This document shows positions 13,190 to 58,297 of a DNA stretch of 64,000 nt, one piece after another. Source of the stretch: Escherichia coli (GTDB taxonomy: Bacteria; Pseudomonadota; Gammaproteobacteria; Enterobacterales; Enterobacteriaceae); NCBI RefSeq assembly GCF_024223415.1, contig NZ_CP100500.1; one strand, 5' to 3'. Position numbers and translations under genes: made by a program. Below the pieces are notes generated by a model. That model did not search any database and was not told where the DNA came from. It was given only the letters and a program-made list of their open reading frames with translations. Each line of letters opens with the position of its first letter. The stretch's first letter is position 1.

Positions 13190-13645
13190 TTATTCAACAC
13201 CTGAATCCCCCGCAGCTTCTCTCCCCTTTATAAAACGCCCCTTCCGGAATCCAGACCGCTGCAGTGCACGACGAAGATGACCGTATACCGTCTTGTCATT
13301 CTGCCCCGTCTCTTCTGTAATCTCCGCAATACTTAAACCTCTGTAATACCGGTTCAGTACCGCTCTGCGCTCTTCCAGCGTCAACACACCTCCGGCCGCT
13401 CTCAGATTCAGCATCGACTTATTCAGAATACAGCAGGCCTCTCCGGTAAAAAGAATACGAACAATATCTGTATACTCATCATCACAGAATACAAAATAAT
13501 ATCTGAATGACCTGCCTGACTGCACCCTTCTTCTGTCTGATATGGCATCTTCTATATATCTGATTCGACTGCTTACGGTTCCAAATATCTCTCGCAGGGC
13601 TTTTTCAAAATAAATATCTCTCGTCGCCAGGATTATATCCAGCAT
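13190..13645 (-). CDS. Small protein with sigma-70 region-4 / LuxR-type HTH (putative transcriptional regulator)
   Basis: 151 aa; C-terminal LTLEERRAVLNRYYRGLSIAEITEETGQNDKTVYGHLRRALQRS resembles ECF sigma region 4. Confidence 0.5.
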   Translation of the reverse strand: MLDIILATRDIYFEKALREIFGTVSSRIRYIEDAISDRRRVQSGRSFRYYFVFCDDEYTDIVRILFTGEACCILNKSMLNLRAAGGVLTLEERRAVLNRYYRGLSIAEITEETGQNDKTVYGHLRRALQRSGFRKGRFIKGREAAGDSGVE

Positions 13646-13705: not shown

Positions 13706-14833
13706 TCAGAACTCAAAATTCACACCAGCATTCCACGATGCGGATGACCCACCTGCAGCAACTGCAACTTTTCCTGCCACATTCTCTGTGAAACGGTAGC
13801 CCACGCCCACCGCAATGGCCTGCTCATCACGGTAACCACCAACGGCTGCTGTCGCGTTAAATTTTCCAACACTGTATGGCTGGAAAAGACCGGCCAGTGC
13901 CGCGCTCTGGGCTGCACTCTCCCTTAACTCCTTCCGGTTCTCTTTAATCTGCTCCTGCATATTATTCATTCTCTCTGTCGCCATCTTCTGCCAGGCTTCC
14001 GTCAAATCCAGACGATGACTGTTATTCCTTATCGCTGCTGTATTTGAGGCTATTGCTGCATCCGTCTGCGCCCTGTTCTTCACAAGCACATCGCTGAGAT
14101 GTTCTGCCTGGCTTTTCACCTCGTTACGGACAGTACGCACACTGCTGTCTGTATATGTACGCGTCTCGTCCAGAACATCCGACTTCACCGCATCCGTGTA
14201 TTCCTGCGCAGAAGCCCTGGCAGCTGTAATATTACCGTTAAGTCTGTTTTCTGCCGATTCCACTCGACTCTTAGCATCAGCAACAGCATCACGGTAGACA
14301 GCTCCTATCTCACCGCGCAGGGCATCCCCCGACTCCCGTACAGCATCTGCAATGGCGTTGTCCATCTGTCCTTTTGTGGCCGCATCACTATCCTTAACAC
14401 CATCTGAAACATTTATAATCCGGCGGGTTTCCGGTGCACCATCAACTGAAAATCCATATCCTGAAGGACCGGCCCCTACAGAAAGTACATTGCTTTCTCC
14501 ATTCACCTGAGAGCCATACCCCAGAGCGACACTGTTGTCTGCATTAAAAACAGCTGTATTATTTCCCACAGCCATGGATTTATCCGCATCCCAAATTATT
14601 GCATCGGAACCAACAGCAAAGTTTTTTCCAGTAACACTACCATCACTGTTAAAATTTCCATTTCTGTCAACCACAGTTGCACTTTCAAGTGAATGAGTGC
14701 CATTATCAATCCAGATAATACCCGTCGATGACTCAGTAAGTGTTTTATGAGCCAAAGCCTGAGATGAGAGCAGCAGGGCCACACTCACTGCCAGCGCGCT
14801 TTTCTTTAAAAAAGCATCACGTCTTTTAAGCAT
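13706..14833 (-). CDS. Trimeric autotransporter adhesin with YadA-like C-terminal anchor (Eib-like immunoglobulin-binding protein family candidate)
   Basis: ATG at 14833 gives 375 aa with signal peptide MLKRRDAFLKKSALAVSVALLLSSQALA, coiled-coil stalk, and C-terminal anchor ending ..WNAGVNFEF. Confidence 0.7.
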   Translation of the reverse strand: MLKRRDAFLKKSALAVSVALLLSSQALAHKTLTESSTGIIWIDNGTHSLESATVVDRNGNFNSDGSVTGKNFAVGSDAIIWDADKSMAVGNNTAVFNADNSVALGYGSQVNGESNVLSVGAGPSGYGFSVDGAPETRRIINVSDGVKDSDAATKGQMDNAIADAVRESGDALRGEIGAVYRDAVADAKSRVESAENRLNGNITAARASAQEYTDAVKSDVLDETRTYTDSSVRTVRNEVKSQAEHLSDVLVKNRAQTDAAIASNTAAIRNNSHRLDLTEAWQKMATERMNNMQEQIKENRKELRESAAQSAALAGLFQPYSVGKFNATAAVGGYRDEQAIAVGVGYRFTENVAGKVAVAAGGSSASWNAGVNFEF

Positions 14834-15237
14834 TCTGTTATTCTCCTGTATTATTACTTCACCAGCCAGAACGGTAGTGCGGAGCAAAAATACAGTGATA
14901 AGAATCCTCTTTTATTAATTTAATAATATCAGGAATATTATTGTGTATAATATGCGCCCTCAATTTAAGCAGCAGAAAAGCAATGACGCGAAAATCATTA
15001 AAATACATAAAGATAAAACATCATAACTATAATTATAATAAGCGCGCTTATTTTAGCATCTGAACATTTAAAGTACTGCTATCACAAAACAATAAAAATC
15101 CTGGGTAATATCTCTGATGATTGAATGAGAAATTCACGATGTCTGGTGAGAATTCTGTTCAAAACGAGGAATGCAGACGTACACGTGGCACGCACCACGT
15201 GATCCGTAGAAAAGCCTCTTGTTACGAATTTCGTAAA

Positions 15238-16086: not shown

Positions 16087-17892
16087 TCACCGTATTCTCT
16101 GAAACAGGCCCCAAATCGTCCCAATGATATTATTCACTGTCATGTTAGTTGTGCATAACATCCATGTACCAAGCATAGGATTGCCAAATAAAAAGCGGAT
16201 ATCTGTAAGTTTATCCGATGACGACGACACAATAACGGCCTGTCTGATACGATACCCGGGTATTTCACGGGTATTTGTTACCTCATGATTTCGTTCTATG
16301 ATCCCCAGAACATAAGACCCCACGGAATAAACACTTCCGACGCTCGCTGGCTGCCCCGGCTGTCCCTGTGGTCCTGCCGGGCCGCGTTCACCTGTATACC
16401 CTCTTGGCCCCTGAGGACCTGCCGGGCCGCGTTCACCTGTATCCCCCTTTAGTCCCTGTGGACCTGCCGGACCGCGTTCACCTGTATCGCCCTTTGGTCC
16501 CTGTGGACCACGCTCCCCCTGGGCTCCCAGCTCTTTCCATTCAGACCAGGGGCCATTACCGGTAAAATTACCAGTAACAGTTCTTACGAACTTTCGTGGT
16601 GGGTTCCAGGTTGTATATTCATGCTGGCAATATCCCCATGCACCAACTCTTACCTGAAGATAACCCGCTCTCTGAATCGGATAATTATTTTCTCGTGTAG
16701 CCCCACTGTCTGATGGCTGATAATAATCACCCTGATCGGTCACTCGTCCCAGTCGGTTCAGATCACCATTCAGCAGTTGTCCACGGGCTGACTCTCCTCT
16801 TGGTCCCTGAGGACCTGCCGGACCGCGTGCTCCTGTTTCACCTTTTGCTCCCTGTGGACCTGTCGGACCGCGTTCACCTGTTTCACCTTTTGGTCCCTGT
16901 GGTCCTGCCGGGCCGCGTTCACCTGTTTCACCCTTTGCTCCCTGTGGACCTTCCGGGCCACGTTCACCTGTATCCCCCTTTGGTCCCTGAGGACCTGCCG
17001 GGCCACGTTCACCTGTATCGCCCTTTGATCCCTGTGGACCTGCCGGGCCGCGTTCACCTGTATCCCCCTTTGGTCCCTGTGGACCTCCCGGATCTCCTTT
17101 ATCCCCCTTAGGGCCTTTTTCTCCTCGCTCACCCTTTTCTCCCTTCAGACCCTGAGGGCCTTCCGGACCACGTGCACCTGTTTCGCCCTTTGCTCCCTGT
17201 GGACCTGCCGGGCCGCGTTCACCTGTTTCGCCCTTTGCTCCCTGTGGACCTGCCGGGCCGCGTGCACCTGTTTCACCCTTTGGTCCCTGTGGACCTGCCG
17301 GGCCGCGTTCACCTGTATCGCCCTTTAGTCCCTGTGGACCTGCCGGACCGCGTTCACCTGTTTCACCTTTTGGTCCCTGTGGTCCTGCCGGGCCACGTGC
17401 TCCTGTTTCACCTTTTGGCCCCTGTGGCCCGGTAATGCCTCTTTCACCACGAGCGCCGGTATCCCCTTTCTCTCCTCGTGGTCCCCGGGCAGATGCTGCT
17501 CGTTTCCGGGCTTCCTCCGCCTCAGATGCCGCGGACTCTGCTCTGTGCAGTATGGACTGCACCACAGCCTCCAGCTCTGACAACGCCTTCGGATAATAAG
17601 GAGCATCTTCCAGCTCCATCAGAAATTTATTCAGTGTTCCCGGTGAAGAATCCTCCCTGACCACGATATCTCCCACATACGAAGGACGGTAACCTTCTGT
17701 ATTGAGTGTCACCCTGTATATTCCTGGCTCCACATCCATACTGTAACTCCCCGTCTCTTCCGGCATGCCATAAGCCACTGTCGTGGCGATGACTGTCTCG
17801 CTGGTTCTCTTCGCTTTCAGCTCAATAATGCATCCCGGTACCGGTTTTCCGGTTCCGTCCCTCAGCACGCCTGAAATTTTTACAGCCGCCAT
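16087..17892 (-). CDS. Side tail fibre protein (lambda Stf-like N-terminus) with collagen-like Gly-X-Y repeats
   Basis: 601 aa; N-terminus [18 protein letters not shown].. resembles lambda Stf; long [19 protein letters not shown] collagen triple-helix repeats. Confidence 0.85.
16320..17510. repeat. Tandem collagen-like coding repeats (27/45-bp periodic units) within the tail fibre gene
   Basis: Repeated GGTCCCTGTGGACCTGCCGGRCCGCGTTCACCTGT units on plus strand. Confidence 0.85.
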
Positions 17893-17964: not shown

Positions 17965-18210
17965 TTACTTCACGCACGAAACTTTCGTAAACATATCTTC
18001 ACTCACCCACTGACCATAAAATCTCGGAGCTGATACTTTATACACAGTGCCGCTTTTCGTTTCTATTTTCCCTGTAAGATCTACCGTATAAGCTCGCTGT
18101 AAAACCCCGGGACTCAGCACACCGGTGCACCGGACTCTCTCCGTAACGGAACGGTACCCCGCGCAACCTGATACAAGAAACAGCAAAAAAGTGCAGACGA
18201 TTATTTTCAT
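17965..18210 (-). CDS. Small lipoprotein (signal peptide with LVSGC lipobox), possible Cor-like superinfection-exclusion protein
   Basis: 81 aa; MKIIVCTFLLFLVSGC lipoprotein signal; located between J-distal genes and side tail fibre. Confidence 0.55.
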   Translation of the reverse strand: MKIIVCTFLLFLVSGCAGYRSVTERVRCTGVLSPGVLQRAYTVDLTGKIETKSGTVYKVSAPRFYGQWVSEDMFTKVSCVK

Positions 18211-18231: not shown

Positions 18232-18894
18232 TCAGTACGCATCATAAATTTCTGCATTTATGTAATAACAGAGGTTATTAACAACACCTGAATTATCATT
18301 GGGCGCCGCTACGTTATCTTCAGCAAAAGTTGACTGACGCCATAACTGTGAGTTTCTGGCATTAAAACTGGCGGTATACCAGTAATAACTCTCCCCTTCC
18401 TGAACTGTCGTCCACTGGGTACACCCCGGCATTACGGCCACATCATGTCCCACACTGATCGGTACATCCTTTTCCCATATTCGCGTCATTTTTACTTCCA
18501 GTGGCAGCATTTCCGTGTTCCAGACCACCCTGCCATGACTGTCGCACAACTGTATTCCCCATTGCGGCCATACATTCACCATGTTGGCAAAAACATAAAC
18601 AACATATGTGCTGTCCTGTTCCATGCCCGGCTCCTGCCCTGTACCAGCGCTGAAAATGTCATACTGCCAGGTACCGTTAAGCTGAACCATTTCACCATGG
18701 AAGGACTGATTACCGCTTATCTGTTTAATAAAAATCACGCAACGATAATTCGTCGGCACCCCAGTGTCGATAAACTGCATCACCGCATCACGCGCACTCA
18801 GTGTGAAATGAAAACGGCGCACAAGGTTCAGTGGCGGCGCAACAGGTGATATCCATTCTCTCCCCCGCTCATCAGTTAATTTAAGTGCAAACAT
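18232..18894 (-). CDS. Hypothetical protein, translationally coupled downstream of J
   Basis: 220 aa ORF; start overlaps upstream ORF stop. Confidence 0.55.
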   Translation of the reverse strand: MFALKLTDERGREWISPVAPPLNLVRRFHFTLSARDAVMQFIDTGVPTNYRCVIFIKQISGNQSFHGEMVQLNGTWQYDIFSAGTGQEPGMEQDSTYVVYVFANMVNVWPQWGIQLCDSHGRVVWNTEMLPLEVKMTRIWEKDVPISVGHDVAVMPGCTQWTTVQEGESYYWYTASFNARNSQLWRQSTFAEDNVAAPNDNSGVVNNLCYYINAEIYDAY

Positions 18895-19154
18895 CAGATC
18901 CCCCTTATCATGACCAGCACGGGTCTTAACCAGCTTGTGTTGGCATAGTGCACTGTCCAGCCGGATACACTGGCACTGGTATGACTTCCCTGACCGTTAA
19001 TCAGAATGGCCGGTGAACAGACTTCCAGACGCCAGCCCTGCAAAGGAGTATAAGAACGCTGCCCCGTCCCTTCAGTGATCACATCCAGCACCCCTGTTGG
19101 GTTTATTTCATGTGTCACAAGGCGCCCTTTGCGCCATACCCGGACTCCGAACAT
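18894..19154 (-). CDS. Hypothetical protein immediately downstream of J
   Basis: 86 aa ORF; start overlaps J stop. Confidence 0.45.
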   Translation of the reverse strand: MFGVRVWRKGRLVTHEINPTGVLDVITEGTGQRSYTPLQGWRLEVCSPAILINGQGSHTSASVSGWTVHYANTSWLRPVLVMIRGI

Positions 19155-22100
19155 TACAGTCTCCCCAGTCGTACTCTTAACACATTGTTATCGTCATATA
19201 CGTCGATTCGCTCGCCATTGAAAAACAGGCGGCCTGCGCCGGGCCTTCCTGAGTTAATTTCAAGGCTGCCGTTTCTTGATAAACGCCACCCCGGACTACC
19301 GGAATGAAAATTATCTGACCGGATATCTCCCGTCACTCTGGCAAAATCCACGGTCAGTTTTTTCATGAAAACATCATTCATGAACAGCTGATCACCCTGA
19401 GCCACAAACAAAGGTGTTGTATTGCCATTTTCCGGGTTAATCATCGCAATACGATCTGCCTGCATCAGGATCTGACTCTGAATTCCGTCAGACGTATTTT
19501 CGATTCCGGCACCAATACCTGCAATATAGAGACGTCCATCCCGTGTCTGCTGCAGCTTCACAGCCCACATGCTGTTCAGGTTCCGGCGCGTGTCCTCCTG
19601 AACTTTCTGTATCTGCTCAATGCTGGCATTCCAGGATCCCAGTTTTTTATCCGTGCTCTGTGTGATCTGACTTCCCTTATCATCAACATACTGTCTGATC
19701 TGCGCTATCTGTCGGCTGTTCTCCTCCGTGCTCCTGCTTACTGTCTGCCGGATTTCGCTTCCCATCCTGTCAACTTTTCTGTCAACTTCCGCAATGGCCA
19801 TTGACTGTTCAGCGCTCTTTTTCGCCACAACAGTACTTATTTGCGCACTTTTATCATCAACATACTGCCTGACCTGCGCTATCTGTCGGCTGTTCTCCTC
19901 CGTGCTCCTGCTCACTGTCTGCCGGATTTCACTGCTCACGCTGTCAACTTTCCTGTCGACTTTCGCAATGGCCAGCGACTGTTCACCGCTCTTTTTCGCC
20001 ACCAGTTCCGTTATGCTGTTTTCAGACGCCGTGATTTTTTTCGTCACCTCTGCGATATCACGCTCCGCACGCTGCCTCACATCTTTCTCCAGCTGCGTCA
20101 TTTCGCGGTTAATCGCATTCTCCAGTTGCTCAACTTCAGTGCGCCGTGCAGAGGCATCAATGCGTTCATTGATCTCCCGTCCCAGATGCGTTTTATTTAT
20201 CGCCCCCCTGAAAAAATTAAGGTAACCGGCAGGATCATTACTCGCCCGACCGACTGCCTCCACGAATGCCGATTTACCGACAGTGTTAACACTGCGGATA
20301 TAAAAGTAATAATCATGGCCAGGTTTAATATTCTGGCCGGAGACAAGCCACTGACTTCCGGTACCAAGATAACGGGCTGTGGTTTCAACCTGCCTGATAT
20401 CGGTAATCCGCGTTTCCGAGAACCAGAACTCAAACTGTACCGTCGGATCGTAAACCGCAAGATGCGGCGTGGCGGTTATCTGAAAATAGCCCGGCGTCAG
20501 CTCAATCCGCGACGGCGCTGCCGGTGCGGCAATCCGGAACGATACCGACGCCGGGTCTCCCTGCTGCCCCCGGGCATTTACTGCCCGGACTGTCAGCCTG
20601 TAGTTCCCCGGCGCCAGCTGCCTGAAGCGGTATGTGGTTTCCGTCGTCCGGGCCGTGCTGACCAGCCGCTCACTGCCATCATCCGCGGCCACGGTCAGGC
20701 GAAGCAGGAAGCTCACGCCCTTCACCACCTTCGGCGTGTCCCAGCGCGCCAGCACCTGATATTCCCCGCTGTCTGCGGTGACTTCTGCGGTCAGGTGCTG
20801 CACCGCTGGCGGCGTGACACCATTCACCGTTCCGCTCTGGTCGCCGTCAAAGTGCGCCCCGTTATCCACGATGGCCTCTTTTTCCGGTACATGCTGCACG
20901 GCAGTGATGGCATACGTGCCGTCGTCGTTCTCACGGATACTCACGCAGCGGAACAGGCGCTGGCGCAGCGTCGGCAGCTTCAGCCCCCACACGCTGTACT
21001 CGGCAACGCCGTCAGGAACCCGGCTCACTTTTACCTTCACGCCGTCGGTGACGGACTGAACCTCCACGCTGACCGGATTGCCACTTCCGTCAACCAGACT
21101 TATCAGCGTGGTACCGGAGGATGGCAGCGTGATTTCACGGTCGAGCGTCAGCGTCCGGGTCTGGCTGTTCACCGCCAGCACACGACCACCGGTGCTGATA
21201 CCGGCATAGTCATCATCACAGATTTCAATGACATCGCCCGGTACATGGCGAAGCCCTTCAGCACCCACGCTGAAATCCACGGTCTGCGTCTCCAGCAGTT
21301 CTGTTTTAATCAGCCACAGCCCGGCGCGGTGTGCCTGCCCCCGGCTGGTACAGCCAAAGGCATCCATCTTCGTGACGTTACGACCGTAACGGGCAATGGC
21401 CTGCGTGTCCTCCACAAGCTCTGTCGCCGTCTCCTGGCCGTTATCCGGGTCACTCCAGTTCACCTCAACGGCATTATGGCGGTCCTTCAGGGCGCTGAAG
21501 CTGTAGCGGAACGGCGCGCCATCATCCGGCATCACCACATTACTGCGGTTATAGGTCCACACCTTATCCGACGGTCGGTCCTGCACGAACGTCAGCGTCT
21601 GCCCGTTCCATACCGGCATACAGCGCATCGCCGAGCAGAAATCACTGAGCACATCCCACGCCTTACGCTGCCTGGTCAGCCAGGCATTACAGGTGATGCG
21701 CGGCTCCGTGCCACCAGAGCCGTCCGGCACCGACTGGTCGCAGTACTGGCCGATGACATACAGCGCCCATTTGTCCACATCCGCTGCGCCAACACGTTTC
21801 CCCATGCCGTAGCGCGGGTGGGTCAGCATATCCCACAGACACCAGGCCGGGTTATCGCTGTATGCCGGTTTAAACGTTCCGTCCCAGATACCGCTGTATT
21901 GCCGCGTCTGCGGGTTATAGTTCGACGGCACCTGCAGAATGCGCCCGCGAAGATGATAATTACGGCTCACCTGCTGGCTGCCGAACTGCTCCGAATCCAC
22001 CTGCACACCGACCAGTGCCGTGTTCGGGTAGCACTGTTTCACATCGATGATTTCGGTGTATGACGACCAGAGCGTTTTGTTCTGCAGCTGGTCTGTGGTG

Positions 22101-22663
22101 CTGTCCGGCGTCATCCTGCGCATCCGGATACTGAACGGGCGCGGCGGCAGGTTACCCACCACCACCGGGGCCAGATACTGCGAGGTGGTTTTGCCCTTAA
22201 TGGTGATGTCTTTTTCCGTTAACCAGCGACCGTTACGCTGTATCTGAACCAGCAGGCGGACTTCCGACGGATTCCGGTCCCCCTTTGAGGTGGTTTCCAC
22301 CAGTGCCTGCACACCGAAGGTCAGGCGCAGACGGTCGATGTTTGCCGACGTGATGGTCCGGGTAATCGGCGTGTCGTACTTCACTTCCGTACCCAGCACC
22401 GTCTCGGAGCCGGAGGATTCAAATCCCTCCGGCGGCGTCTGCTCCTGCTCACCGGCCCGGAATACCACCGTGACGCCGGATATATTGGTATTCCCCTCAC
22501 TGTCCAGCACCGGCGTACCGTTCAGCAGCACGCTTTTTAATCCATCCACCGGTCCTTGTATCGGCCCTTCGCTGATGACATCGATCACACTCAGCAACTG
22601 CGTGGACTTCAGGTTGTCCTTCGCTTCGCGCGGGGTATGCCCCTTACTGCTGCCTTTACCCAT
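19154..22663 (-). CDS. Host specificity / central tail fibre protein J
   Basis: 1169 aa; lambda gpJ-like N-terminal and fibronectin-like regions; internal duplicated coiled-coil segment. Confidence 0.9.
19690..19995. repeat. About 150-bp tandem duplication inside J (encodes repeated ..AKKSxEQSxAIAxVDRKVD..[28 protein letters not shown].. segment)
   Basis: Two near-identical adjacent copies visible in DNA and protein. Confidence 0.8.
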
Positions 22664-56940: not shown

Positions 56941-57189
56941 ATGGCAAGACTTATTCTGCTCACTGAGTGGGCAAAAGAGGAATTCAGTGAACCGGTCCCT
57001 ACTCCGGGTACGTTAAGTAAATACGCTAAAGCCGGAATGATATTTCCTCTCCCCAAAAAAGTAGGAAGGCACTGGCGAGTGGATCCACGCGCTCGCTTTG
57101 TCGGAATGGTAAACAAGCCGGAGGTGATCGCCACAGATCACCCTGCTTTGAAGAGGATACTGGAAGATGGCGCGCCCGCGAAAATATAA
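56941..57189 (+). CDS. xis: Excisionase-like protein
   Basis: 82 aa basic protein overlapping int start. Confidence 0.65.
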   Translation: MARLILLTEWAKEEFSEPVPTPGTLSKYAKAGMIFPLPKKVGRHWRVDPRARFVGMVNKPEVIATDHPALKRILEDGAPAKI

Positions 57190-58297
57190 AACCGATGTTC
57201 CGGGTTTATCTCCGTATTTTGACAAAAGAAATAACAAAGTTTACTGGCGTTACAGGCATCCCATCACAGGTAAAAATCATGGACTCGGCAGTATTGACCA
57301 GAAACTGGCGGAAACCATTGCAGCAGAAGCGAACAGCCGTCTTGCCAGACAACAAATGGAGCAAATTCTCAGTCTGCAGGAGAAAATTATTAGTGATACC
57401 GGCGGCGCATCAACCGTTTCCATTTTTCTGAATAATTACAGAAAAATTCAACAGGAAAGATATGAGAACGGAGAGATCAAACTCAGCACGCTGAAGCAAA
57501 AAGCGGCTCCTCTCAGGGTGTTTGATGAACGTTTTGGAGCCAGGCCGCTAGATGCCATAACCGTAAAAGATGTGGTATCGGTGCTGGAAGAATACAAGGC
57601 AAAGGGACATAACAGAATGGGACAAATTTTCAGGAAGGTATTGATCGATGTTTTCCGGGAGGCTCAACAAACGGGTGATGTTCCGCCAGGCTTTAACCCG
57701 GCTGAATCGGCAAAAAAACCGCAAGTGCGGATATCAAGACAGCGACTGACTTTTGATGAGTGGATGATGATTTATAACGCAGCGGAAAAGGATGGTTACT
57801 TTTTACAGCGCGGCATGCTGCTGGCACTGATGACGGGCCAGCGTCTTTCGGATATTTGCAAAATGCAGTTTTCGGATATCCGGGATGGTTACCTTCATGT
57901 CGAACAGCAAAAAACAGGAGCCCGGATAGCCATTCCTCTGGCTCTGCGTTGCGACAAATTAAATCTTACCCTGGGTGACGTGGTGTCATCCTGTCGTGAT
58001 TACATCCTTAGTCCGTGGTTATTGCACCATCATCACGCTAAGGGGATGGGTAAGCGCGGCGGGATGGTTAAACCAGCAACATTAACAGTCGCATTTAAAA
58101 AAGCCCGGGATTCTGTGGATTACAACTGGCGTGCTAATGGCACGCCACCCTCTTTCCATGAGCAAAGATCTTTATCAGAACGATTGTTCAGAGAACAGGG
58201 AATTGATACCAAAATTTTGCTGGGCCATTCGAATCAAAAAATGACCGATATTTACAACGACGCACGCGGTAAAGAGTGGAAAAAACTGGTTATTTGA
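57167..58297 (+). CDS. int: Tyrosine-type site-specific integrase
   Basis: 376 aa; adjacent to prophage end at ompW 3' end. Confidence 0.88.
   Translation: MARPRKYKTDVPGLSPYFDKRNNKVYWRYRHPITGKNHGLGSIDQKLAETIAAEANSRLARQQMEQILSLQEKIISDTGGASTVSIFLNNYRKIQQERYENGEIKLSTLKQKAAPLRVFDERFGARPLDAITVKDVVSVLEEYKAKGHNRMGQIFRKVLIDVFREAQQTGDVPPGFNPAESAKKPQVRISRQRLTFDEWMMIYNAAEKDGYFLQRGMLLALMTGQRLSDICKMQFSDIRDGYLHVEQQKTGARIAIPLALRCDKLNLTLGDVVSSCRDYILSPWLLHHHHAKGMGKRGGMVKPATLTVAFKKARDSVDYNWRANGTPPSFHEQRSLSERLFREQGIDTKILLGHSNQKMTDIYNDARGKEWKKLVI

What the first reader, a model, noticed from the sequence alone, without database searches (positions are those of the whole stretch)
19690..19995. In-frame tandem duplication within host-specificity protein J
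An approximately 150-bp segment is duplicated in tandem, producing two copies of a 50-aa coiled-coil-like segment in J. This could alter tail-tip geometry and is a site prone to expansion or contraction.
Basis: seen in the sequence. Interest (0 to 1): 0.3.

Follow-up and report, generated by a model that had tools for sequence, protein, structure and literature searches.

The report
Length-variable helical shaft repeat in gpJ
A prophage tail-tip protein (lambda gpJ homologue) carries a real in-frame tandem duplication of a 58-amino-acid helical segment that should lengthen the phage's central tail fibre by about 9 nm (calculated), and related E. coli prophages have one, two or three copies; this is an ordinary but neatly documented example of how phage fibres change length.

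Summary
A tandem repeat lies at 19677-20002: period 174 nt (58 codons), 1.9 copies, cores ~150 nt and 90% identical. It is in frame on the minus strand, in ORF 19154-22663 (1169 aa). That ORF is a gpJ homologue, ~95% identical by eye to lambda J over aa 1-838, with a phage-T1-gp33-like C-terminal fibre. The repeat sits in the alpha-helical shaft (AHS) between the FNIII-2 domain and the beta-prism, at lambda position 838/842. The shaft (aa 809-1033) is 225 aa against ~53 in lambda. It has a significant 29-aa sub-period and a hydrophobic periodicity of 3.63 residues, so it is not a heptad coiled coil. It is not an assembly artefact: 21 complete E. coli genomes have two diverged units, with dS 0.30 and dN 0.065 between them. 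Copy number does vary. There is a 3-unit allele in a complete genome, plus 1- and 3-unit alleles in drafts whose hybrid units show single clean crossovers. Separate 11-aa and 29-aa duplications also occur. All these indels preserve the helical seam (phase error 11 degrees or less). The most likely role is a modular spacer of ~8.7 nm per unit that sets fibre reach; that part is inferred, not shown. Modest interest; a new member of a known kind.

The parts
19154..22663 (-). gpJ homologue (tip attachment / central tail fibre protein), 1169 aa
   Evidence: Intact ORF; NF049904 lambda_TipJ above cut-off; Pfam domain set; aligns with lambda gpJ over residues 1-838
19565..20239 (-). Alpha-helical shaft (AHS), aa 809-1033; about 171 aa longer than in lambda, with the extra sequence at lambda position 838/842
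   Evidence: The lambda alignment breaks at query 838 -> 1013 and lambda 838 -> 842. Lambda AHS is defined in PMC11101478. Hydrophobic period 3.63 with 0/500 shuffles reaching it. AF2 secondary structure is helix for aa 811-1031, at low pLDDT
19826..19999 (-). 58-codon unit 1 (aa 889-946)
19652..19825 (-). 58-codon unit 2 (aa 947-1004); its last 8 codons are the ancestral tail
   Evidence: tail is 67% identical to the single-copy orthologue in phage PhiR40_1
19826..19849 (-). 24-nt novel joint (aa 939-946, SAQISTVV) between unit 1 and unit 2
   Evidence: 7/24 nt identity to unit 2's tail and 33% to the orthologue; origin unexplained
20063..20128 (-). Two tandem hendecads, [11 protein letters not shown] and [11 protein letters not shown] (aa 846-867); a second small repeat array with 1, 2 or 3 copies in other alleles
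   Evidence: GF60, F1022 and AR_0085 have an extra [11 protein letters not shown], 32/33 nt identical to its neighbour; PhiR40_1 has one hendecad; table
19565..19651 (-). Terminal 29-aa shaft unit (aa 1005-1033), homologous to lambda gpJ ~842-861, the part that converts from helix to beta-strands on receptor binding in lambda
   Evidence: Alignment to lambda 842-861; lambda mechanism in PMC11101478
19244..19621 (-). Phage_Tail_Tip (DUF1983) domain, aa 1015-1140, followed by a short T1-gp33-like C-terminus ending at aa 1169
   Evidence: PF09327 E 2.3e-34; T1 gp33 (9l9p_S) aligned over chain residues 883-1168, E 3e-19

Best explanation
The feature is a genuine in-frame tandem duplication of a 58-residue module in the trimeric alpha-helical shaft of the central tail fibre protein gpJ. 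Shown: the shaft is built from 29-residue sub-repeats whose hydrophobic seam recurs every 3.63 residues (29 residues = 8 turns), so a 58-residue unit is 16 turns and leaves the seam in phase. Shown: the duplication arose within this allele lineage. The two cores are 90% identical to each other but only 68-72% identical to the single-copy orthologue. Both copies have since been kept under purifying selection. Shown: copy number now changes by unequal homologous crossing-over between the units, giving 1-, 2- and 3-unit alleles with clean hybrid units. Independent 11- and 29-residue duplications also occur in the same shaft. Inferred: each unit adds about 8.7 nm (58 x 0.15 nm) of rigid three-helix bundle between the FNIII-2 clamp and the distal beta-prism/tip. 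The duplication would therefore lengthen the central fibre without rotating or unfolding the distal receptor-binding end. The shaft would act as a modular spacer that sets how far the tip reaches relative to the side fibres and the host surface layers. The conserved first (aa 809-838) and last (aa 1005-1033) shaft segments would keep the lambda-like clamp and trigger roles.
For: Repeat and frame. Identity as gpJ and position in the AHS: and PMC11101478. Helical character: hydrophobic period 3.630 with power 146.7 against 39.8 +/- 13.8 in shuffles (0/500), and noise-level power (10.3) at 3.5; 1 Pro in 225 aa; AF2 DSSP helix for aa 811-1031. 29-aa sub-period: 26/116 identities against 8.7 +/- 2.8, 0/5000. 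Selection on the copies: dS 0.30, dN 0.065, approximate Fisher p 0.0025. Lineage-specific origin: u1-u2 0.90 against 0.72 and 0.68 to the orthologue. Copy-number variation: AR_0085, a complete genome, has 3 units with units 1 and 2 identical at all 32 diagnostic sites; L006 has 1 unit with pattern 1(x11) then 2; L007 has 3 units with a 2-then-1 middle unit. Ladder of shaft lengths 177/188/246/257/275/304 aa, plus 315 aa for AR_0085 by the same measure. Phase errors of +11, -4 and -8 degrees for the 11-, 29- and 58-aa indels. A long-shaft J works in a viable phage: PhiR40_1 is a propagated isolate with a 1232-aa J. T1 gp33, the closest solved relative of the distal part, is predicted to form a ~370 A alpha/beta fibre and has its own 33-aa tandem repeat in the shaft.
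Against: No experiment or trimer model here shows the fibre is actually longer or that length affects adsorption. The AF2 monomer model has low confidence (pLDDT 50, pTM 0.20) and breaks the helix at aa 918-923. Phase-preserving indel sizes could reflect mutational bias alone, because recombination between periodic sequences gives multiples of the period; only three indel sizes were seen. The 2-unit allele is rare (22 of 5426 complete genomes) and is absent from 50,697 phage records, so no free phage is known to carry it. Read support for this particular window could not be checked.
Confidence: 0.72

Rival explanations
1. Selectively neutral length polymorphism. The shaft tolerates any seam-preserving insertion, unequal crossing-over between internal repeats produces them, and unit number has no consequence for infection.
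For: The same shaft variants occur with two different distal modules, T1-like and lambda-like, which suggests the shaft is a passive connector. Shaft lengths differ widely among J alleles, and both lambda and PhiR40_1 are viable phages. Indel sizes are those expected from the repeat periodicity alone.
Against: Both copies are under purifying selection (dN/dS ~0.2), although that only shows the protein is kept functional. In lambda the AHS is the element that clamps FNIII-2 and remodels on receptor binding (PMC11101478), so adding ~26 nm there (calculated) is unlikely to be entirely without kinetic effect.
Confidence: 0.22
2. Assembly artefact: the second copy results from an expanded or mis-joined repeat in this assembly.
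For: Read data for the window cannot be inspected. Prophage tail genes are multi-copy in E. coli (median 2, up to 10 J-like places per genome), which complicates assembly.
Against: The copies differ at 32 of 174 positions, with a synonymous excess; artefactual expansion gives identical copies. The same two-unit structure at 98.6% identity or better is present in 21 complete genomes, about 15 distinct assemblies from several countries. The longest identical run between the units is only 39 nt.
Confidence: 0.02
3. Remnant in a decaying prophage: J is no longer used, and the duplication is one of several degenerative rearrangements.
For: Some related prophages are damaged: gene K has an internal stop in GF60, and ISCro1 replaces the side-fibre gene in AR_0085.
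Against: In the window J is an intact 1169-aa ORF. The neighbouring tail genes I, K, L and H, terminase, capsid and integrase ORFs all have full-length family matches. dN/dS between the units is well below 1, and the seam phase is perfectly kept.
Confidence: 0.04

Closest known systems
Bacteriophage lambda gpJ (PDB 8iyk, 8xcj; alpha-helical shaft, AHS, residues ~809-861)
   Same: Residues 1-838 align end to end at about 95% identity by eye. Same domain order: hub, FNIII-1, FNIII-2, helical shaft, beta-prism. The first ~30 and last ~21 shaft residues are homologous.
   Different: The shaft is 225 aa instead of ~53, with about 171 extra residues inserted at lambda 838/842. Those extra residues are made of 29-aa sub-repeats and include the 58-aa duplication. 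The distal end lacks the lambda CSF/RBD that binds LamB (the match stops at lambda ~941).
Phage T1 central fibre protein gp33 (PDB 9l9p_S; PMC11945409)
   Same: The C-terminal ~300 residues align (E 3e-19), including the final ...RV.IGRL motif. It has a long helical shaft followed by beta structure, unresolved by cryo-EM and predicted by AF3 to extend ~370 A. It carries its own tandem repeat in the shaft, 33 aa = 3 hendecads.
   Different: Low sequence identity. The repeat unit is unrelated in sequence and length (33 aa against 58/29 aa). The T1 hub is only distantly related, whereas this protein's hub is nearly lambda's.
Single-unit long-shaft J alleles of E. coli prophages and phage PhiR40_1 (J 1232 aa)
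   Same: Orthologous shaft with one 58-aa unit (39-40 of 58 aa identical), the same 29-aa sub-period and the same terminal unit. This is the dominant class among retrieved homologues (96 of 112 scored representatives).
   Different: One unit and one hendecad instead of two and two; most have a lambda-like CSF+RBD distal end.
Length-variable stalks of trimeric fibrous proteins generally (for example YadA-type adhesin stalks and collagen-like repeats in phage fibres); this comparison is from general knowledge
   Same: Trimeric rod whose length changes by gain or loss of whole repeat units through recombination. The downstream side-fibre gene of this same prophage shows collagen-repeat length variation.
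   Different: Different repeat chemistry and periodicity. No sequence relationship was tested or claimed.

Membership tests
Lambda gpJ / TipJ tail-tip attachment protein | Full-length match to the curated family model above its cut-off | tested here: met
   NF049904 lambda_TipJ, 1978.5 bits against cut-off 1950
Lambda gpJ / TipJ tail-tip attachment protein | Domain order: hub domains, FNIII-A, two Ig/FNIII domains, shaft, tail-tip (DUF1983) domain | tested here: met
   PF24801, PF13550, PF24421, PF24489 and PF09327 in that order
Lambda gpJ / TipJ tail-tip attachment protein | Genomic position after tail genes H-M-L-K-I and before the lom/stf region | tested here: met
   Tape measure, L, K (JAB+NlpC/P60) and I lie upstream on the same strand; a side tail fibre and its assembly protein lie downstream
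Lambda gpJ / TipJ tail-tip attachment protein | Lambda-type C-terminal CSF plus Ig-like receptor-binding domain (LamB binding) | tested here: not met
   The alignment to lambda ends at lambda ~941. The last ~60 aa match T1 gp33, 9ze4_N and 7z4b_EA instead. It is therefore a J-family member with a non-lambda distal module.
Canonical heptad (left-handed) coiled coil | Hydrophobic periodicity of 3.5 residues (7/2) | tested here: not met
   Power 10.3 at 3.5 against 146.7 at 3.63; shuffle mean 39.8
Non-heptad alpha-helical bundle (hendecad-like, 29/8 periodicity) | Coherent amphipathic periodicity near 3.6-3.67 over the whole segment, helix-compatible composition | tested here: met
   Peak at 3.630, coherent over 225 aa, 0/500 shuffles; 1 Pro in 225 aa; DSSP helix in the AF2 model, at low confidence
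Non-heptad alpha-helical bundle (hendecad-like, 29/8 periodicity) | Trimeric parallel bundle | not testable with these tools
   Inferred from the trimeric lambda AHS (PMC11101478). Only monomer prediction is available here.
Slipped-strand contingency locus (phase-variable simple repeat) | Short (1-10 nt) identical units whose number changes shift the frame or switch expression | tested here: not met
   Units are 174 nt, 82% identical overall (90% in the core), and always in frame. Variants carry hybrid units typical of homologous unequal crossover.
T1 gp33-type central fibre / FhuA-dependent host-recognition module | Sequence similarity of the distal fibre to T1 gp33 | tested here: met
   E 3.1e-19 for query fragment residues 71-369 (J aa 871-1169) against chain residues 883-1168
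T1 gp33-type central fibre / FhuA-dependent host-recognition module | Linked cor exclusion gene and use of FhuA | tested here: inconclusive
   The 81-aa ORF 17965-18210 hits phrog_1119 Cor (E 8e-7) but is below the NCBIfam cut-off (28.4 against 31). Receptor use cannot be tested here.

The most novel reading that the evidence does not exclude
The J shaft is an evolvable 'quantised ruler'. Its nested 11-, 29- and 58-residue repeats exist because they let recombination change central-fibre length in seam-preserving steps of ~1.6, 4.3 and 8.7 nm. Unit number would be tuned to the depth of the host's O-antigen or capsule layer, or co-adjusted with the collagen-repeat length of the side fibres. The conserved end segments would still transmit the lambda-type helix-to-strand trigger across a shaft four times longer.
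Probability: 0.15. Interest if true: 0.55.

Novelty: new member of a known kind. Interest (0 to 1): 0.3.

Why it matters
In lambda the helical shaft of gpJ holds the tail tip closed and remodels when the receptor is bound. Natural alleles carry this shaft at 53 to nearly 300 residues and gain or lose whole 58-residue units. This gives phage structural biologists a ready-made allelic series for asking how the trigger signal crosses the fibre and whether fibre reach limits adsorption. It also gives phage engineers a natural, seam-preserving module for changing fibre length. For genome annotation, it warns that J length differences of 11, 29 or 58 aa are real polymorphisms rather than errors.

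Tried and rejected
(1) Canonical heptad coiled coil: rejected, no power at 3.5 residues.
(2) Assembly collapse or expansion as the source of the 1- and 3-unit draft alleles: considered. The 1-unit allele's crossover lies in a 17-nt identical interval (nt 70-86), too short for a k-mer artefact at usual k. The 3-unit draft allele crosses within the 39-nt run, so an artefact is less easily excluded there. The complete genome AR_0085 independently shows 3 units.
(3) The 1-unit near-identical allele as the ancestor of the duplication: rejected. Its diagnostic sites form one clean block switch (11 type-1 sites, then type-2) rather than an interleaved pattern. The true ancestral single-unit state is represented by the diverged 177-class alleles.
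(4) One unit imported from a diverged allele: rejected. The units are closer to each other (0.90) than to the orthologue (0.72 and 0.68).
(5) Origin of the 24-nt joint by crossover between the 29-aa sub-repeats: nucleotide evidence too weak (10/36 and 18/36), left unexplained.
(6) AF2 monomer model: low confidence (pLDDT 50), used only for secondary structure. No fold search was run, because matches to such a model would be meaningless.
(7) Literature searches for tandem repeats in J found no description of this polymorphism; the library is incomplete, so this is weak evidence of novelty.
(8) Plus-strand ORFs overlapping the repeat (19728-20225 and 19841-22063): treated as antisense shadow ORFs of a long gene; no supporting evidence was sought beyond that.
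(9) One tblastn call failed because of a frame error and was replaced.
Full report
1. THE OBSERVATION

Tandem Repeats Finder reports one array at 19677-20002: period 174 nt, 1.9 copies, 90% matches, no indels, score 554. The gap-free repeat finder gives two 152-nt copies, 19677-19828 and 19851-20002, 91% identical and 174 nt apart. In a sliding comparison, the best 150-nt window has 136 identities at offset 174. Sixty dinucleotide-preserving shuffles of the gene give 64.2 +/- 1.8, with a maximum of 69. The repeat is therefore real and far beyond chance. The true period is 174 nt = 58 codons, because each core is followed by 8 poorly conserved codons.

2. WHAT THE GENE IS

- The repeat lies on the minus strand in an intact 1169-aa ORF, 19154-22663.
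- The protein passes NCBI's curated lambda_TipJ model (1978.5 bits against a cut-off of 1950).
- It has the Pfam series FNIII-A_GpJ, Phage-tail_3, Ig_J, Ig_J_second and Phage_Tail_Tip.
- Residues 1-838 align end to end with lambda gpJ (PDB 8iyk), at about 95% identity by eye.
- It follows tape-measure, L, K and I homologues. Downstream are two small membrane-protein ORFs, a Cor-like ORF, a collagen-repeat side fibre and a fibre-assembly protein.
- The prophage spans roughly 13-58 kb of the window, ends at an integrase (57167-58297) and lies next to aspS.

So 'host-specificity protein J' is correct.

3. WHERE IN J THE REPEAT SITS

The alignment to lambda J breaks at residue 838. It resumes at query 1013 = lambda 842, so about 171 extra residues are inserted at lambda position 838/842.

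The cryo-EM work on lambda (PMC11101478, read) defines this region as the alpha-helical shaft (AHS). It is a three-helix bundle below FNIII-2 that 'securely anchors' the FNIII-2 trimer. On LamB binding the AHS flips by about 180 degrees. Residues 809-840 remodel into a shorter helix. Residues 841-861 convert into beta-strands on top of the central straight fibre, which releases the FNIII clamp and opens the tip.

In the window's protein the shaft runs from aa 809 to 1033, so it is 225 aa against ~53 in lambda. Its first ~30 and last ~21 residues are the homologues of the lambda AHS ends. Everything between is extra, including the two 58-aa units (aa 889-946 and 947-1004).

Beyond the shaft, the Phage_Tail_Tip domain (aa 1015-1140) and a short C-terminus resemble phage T1 gp33 (PDB 9l9p_S, E 3e-19), not lambda's CSF+RBD. 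The T1 paper (PMC11945409) could not resolve gp33 residues 821-1172. [quoted passage not shown] The protein is thus a mosaic: a lambda hub with a T1-like long fibre.

4. ANATOMY OF THE SHAFT

- In 29-residue register the shaft reads as seven units from aa 831 to 1033.
- After removing one copy of the recent duplication, the offset-29 self-identity is 26/116. Shuffles give 8.7 +/- 2.8; 0 of 5000 reach the observed value. 0 of 1000 do so even when the maximum over all offsets 5-69 is taken.
- The hydrophobicity spectrum over all 225 residues has one sharp peak at 3.630 residues (29/8 = 3.625). Its power is 146.7, against 39.8 +/- 13.8 for shuffles (0/500). Power at the heptad value 3.5 is at noise level, 10.3.
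- There is one proline in 225 residues.
- An AlphaFold2 monomer model built on an 18-sequence alignment has low confidence (pLDDT 50, pTM 0.20), as expected for one chain of an obligate trimer. Its secondary structure is almost continuous helix for aa 811-1031, followed by strands. I use it only for that.

The segment is therefore an amphipathic helical rod with near-straight (non-heptad) periodicity, not a classical coiled coil. That it is a trimer is inferred from lambda.

5. HISTORY OF THE DUPLICATION

- The two cores (50 codons) are 90% identical, with dS 0.30 and dN 0.065 (7.5 synonymous and 7.5 non-synonymous differences; approximate Fisher p 0.0025). Both copies have been kept under purifying selection.
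- They are closer to each other (0.90) than to the single-copy orthologue in phage PhiR40_1 (0.72 and 0.68). The duplication therefore arose in this lineage and was not imported.
- Unit 2's last 8 codons are ancestral (67% identity to the orthologue). Unit 1's last 8 codons (SAQISTVV, 19826-19849) are at chance-level identity to both.
- The founding event therefore copied ~150 nt and created a 24-nt novel joint that kept both the reading frame and the 58-residue spacing. I could not establish the origin of that joint (see notebook).

In 5426 complete E. coli genomes, 4484 have some J-like match to the flanks. Only 22 carry this shaft sequence at 95% identity or better. Among those 22:
- 19 have J of the window's form with two units.
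- GF60 and F1022 have two units plus an 11-aa tandem duplication, [11 protein letters not shown] (J 1180 aa).
- AR_0085 has three units plus the 11-aa duplication (J 1238 aa).

In AR_0085, units 1 and 2 are identical at all 32 diagnostic sites, so this is a very recent expansion.

The protein database adds the following:
- four near-identical one-unit alleles;
- one further three-unit allele;
- one allele with a separate 29-aa duplication (P0001);
- a dominant diverged class with one unit and one hendecad, 96 of 112 scored cluster representatives. This class includes proteins on Mb-scale contigs and the propagated phage PhiR40_1, whose J is 1232 aa.

DNA of a one-unit draft allele (L006) shows a single switch from unit-1 to unit-2 states between nt 69 and 87. 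DNA of the three-unit draft allele (L007) has a middle unit that switches from unit-2 to unit-1 states within the 39-nt identical run. These are the reciprocal products expected from unequal homologous crossing-over.

The clean block pattern also shows that the near-identical one-unit alleles are secondary contractions, not the ancestor.

The FVEA-to-Y[IV]AGIG distance forms a ladder:

| Distance (aa) | Allele |
|---|---|
| 76 | lambda |
| 104 | P0020 (Shigella sonnei) |
| 177 | one unit, one hendecad (dominant class) |
| 188 | one unit, two hendecads |
| 246 | two units (this window) |
| 257 | two units + 11 aa |
| 275 | two units + 29 aa |
| 304 | three units |
| 315 | three units + 11 aa (AR_0085) |

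The same shaft variants occur with either the T1-like or the lambda-like distal module, so the shaft behaves as an independent mosaic module. None of 50,697 phage records has the two-unit form.

7. ARTEFACT?

I could not inspect reads. An artefactual expansion would give identical copies. Here the copies differ at 32 of 174 sites with a synonymous excess, and the longest identical run is 39 nt. About 15 distinct complete assemblies share the structure. I regard the artefact explanation as excluded for the allele. It is very unlikely for this window, which is 99.7% identical to TUM1886 across the region.

8. MECHANISM

Shown:
- The indels seen among close alleles are 11, 29 and 58 residues.
- At 3.63 residues per turn these equal 3.03, 7.99 and 15.98 turns, giving seam phase errors of +11, -4 and -8 degrees.
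- Shifting the downstream half of the shaft by 2, 5 or 9 residues would abolish the coherent periodicity.

Inferred:
- Each 58-residue unit adds about 8.7 nm of three-helix bundle, taking 0.15 nm per residue. The extra residues relative to lambda add about 26 nm.
- Distal domains keep their register relative to the hub.
- The duplication therefore most likely acts as a modular spacer that changes the reach of the central fibre.
- The conserved terminal 29-mer (aa 1005-1033, homologous to lambda 842-861) and the first shaft segment probably retain the clamp and trigger roles described for lambda.

Whether length is adaptive (reach through O-antigen or capsule, matching to side fibres) or neutral cannot be decided here. 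Mutational bias from the repeat periodicity could by itself explain the indel sizes, and only three sizes were seen.

9. COMPARISON WITH THE KNOWN, AND NOVELTY

The protein is a member of the gpJ/TipJ family with a non-lambda distal module. Long helical shafts are already known from T1 gp33, which has its own 33-aa (3 x 11) tandem repeat in the equivalent place. Length change by repeat gain and loss is a familiar theme in fibrous proteins, a point from general knowledge. The alleles are already in RefSeq, annotated simply as gpJ. Full-text searches did not turn up a description of the unit-number polymorphism, the 29/8 periodicity or the seam-preserving indel series, though that library is incomplete.

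I rate it a new member of a known kind, of modest interest (0.3). It is a tidy natural allelic series for studying the lambda-type trigger and fibre reach, not a surprise.

Noticed in passing
window 17965-18210 (-): An 81-aa ORF resembles the Cor superinfection-exclusion lipoprotein (phrog_1119 E 8e-7; NCBIfam lamb_exclu_cor 28.4 bits, just below the cut-off of 31). Together with the T1-gp33-like J C-terminus, this hints that the prophage uses FhuA rather than LamB.
   Followed up: partly
window 18894-19154 (-) and 18232-18894 (-): Two small ORFs (86 and 220 aa) abut the J stop and each other, sharing boundary coordinates, and occupy the place of lom. They have no Pfam or NCBIfam match. PHROG hits are 'outer membrane protein' (E 3e-4) and 'membrane associated protein' (E 3e-27). 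They are conserved (WP_123891619, WP_000457788) in all related prophages fetched.
   Followed up: partly
window 16087-17892 (-); L001 505-1833, L002 19-1833, L004 460-1833: The side tail fibre gene has collagen Gly-X-Y repeats (PF01391, 6 stretches). Its length differs among otherwise near-identical prophages: 601 aa here, 442 aa in GF60, 604 aa in F1022 and 457 aa in TUM1886. It is a second length-polymorphic fibre in the same tail.
   Followed up: no
L003 1-1872 (E. coli AR_0085): In the genome with the 3-unit J, an IS66-family element (ISCro1) sits where the side tail fibre genes lie in the other prophages, so that prophage is probably defective for side fibres.
   Followed up: no
window 13706-14887 (-): A 393-aa YadA-like trimeric autotransporter adhesin (YadA_anchor E 2e-16, weak stalk and head hits) lies at the tail-fibre end of the prophage, next to a sigma-70 region-4 / HTH protein (13190-13645). 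It may be prophage cargo.
   Followed up: no
window 19841-22063 (+) and 19728-20225 (+): Long antisense ORFs (740 aa with a TTG start; 165 aa) overlap J, including the repeat. I regard them as shadow ORFs of a long gene; no evidence of coding was sought.
   Followed up: no
PDB 9l9p_S (phage T1 gp33), chain residues ~905-975: T1's central fibre protein contains a perfect 33-aa (three-hendecad) tandem repeat, REVIATETEALSREIDQLKAQIGDDIQASLTDI, in the equivalent shaft. Repeat-driven shaft extension therefore seems to recur in J-like fibres.
   Followed up: partly
L001 7243-7694 (E. coli GF60): The tail gene K homologue (C40 peptidase) is annotated as a pseudogene with an internal stop in GF60, although its J (2 units + 11 aa) is intact.
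   Followed up: no
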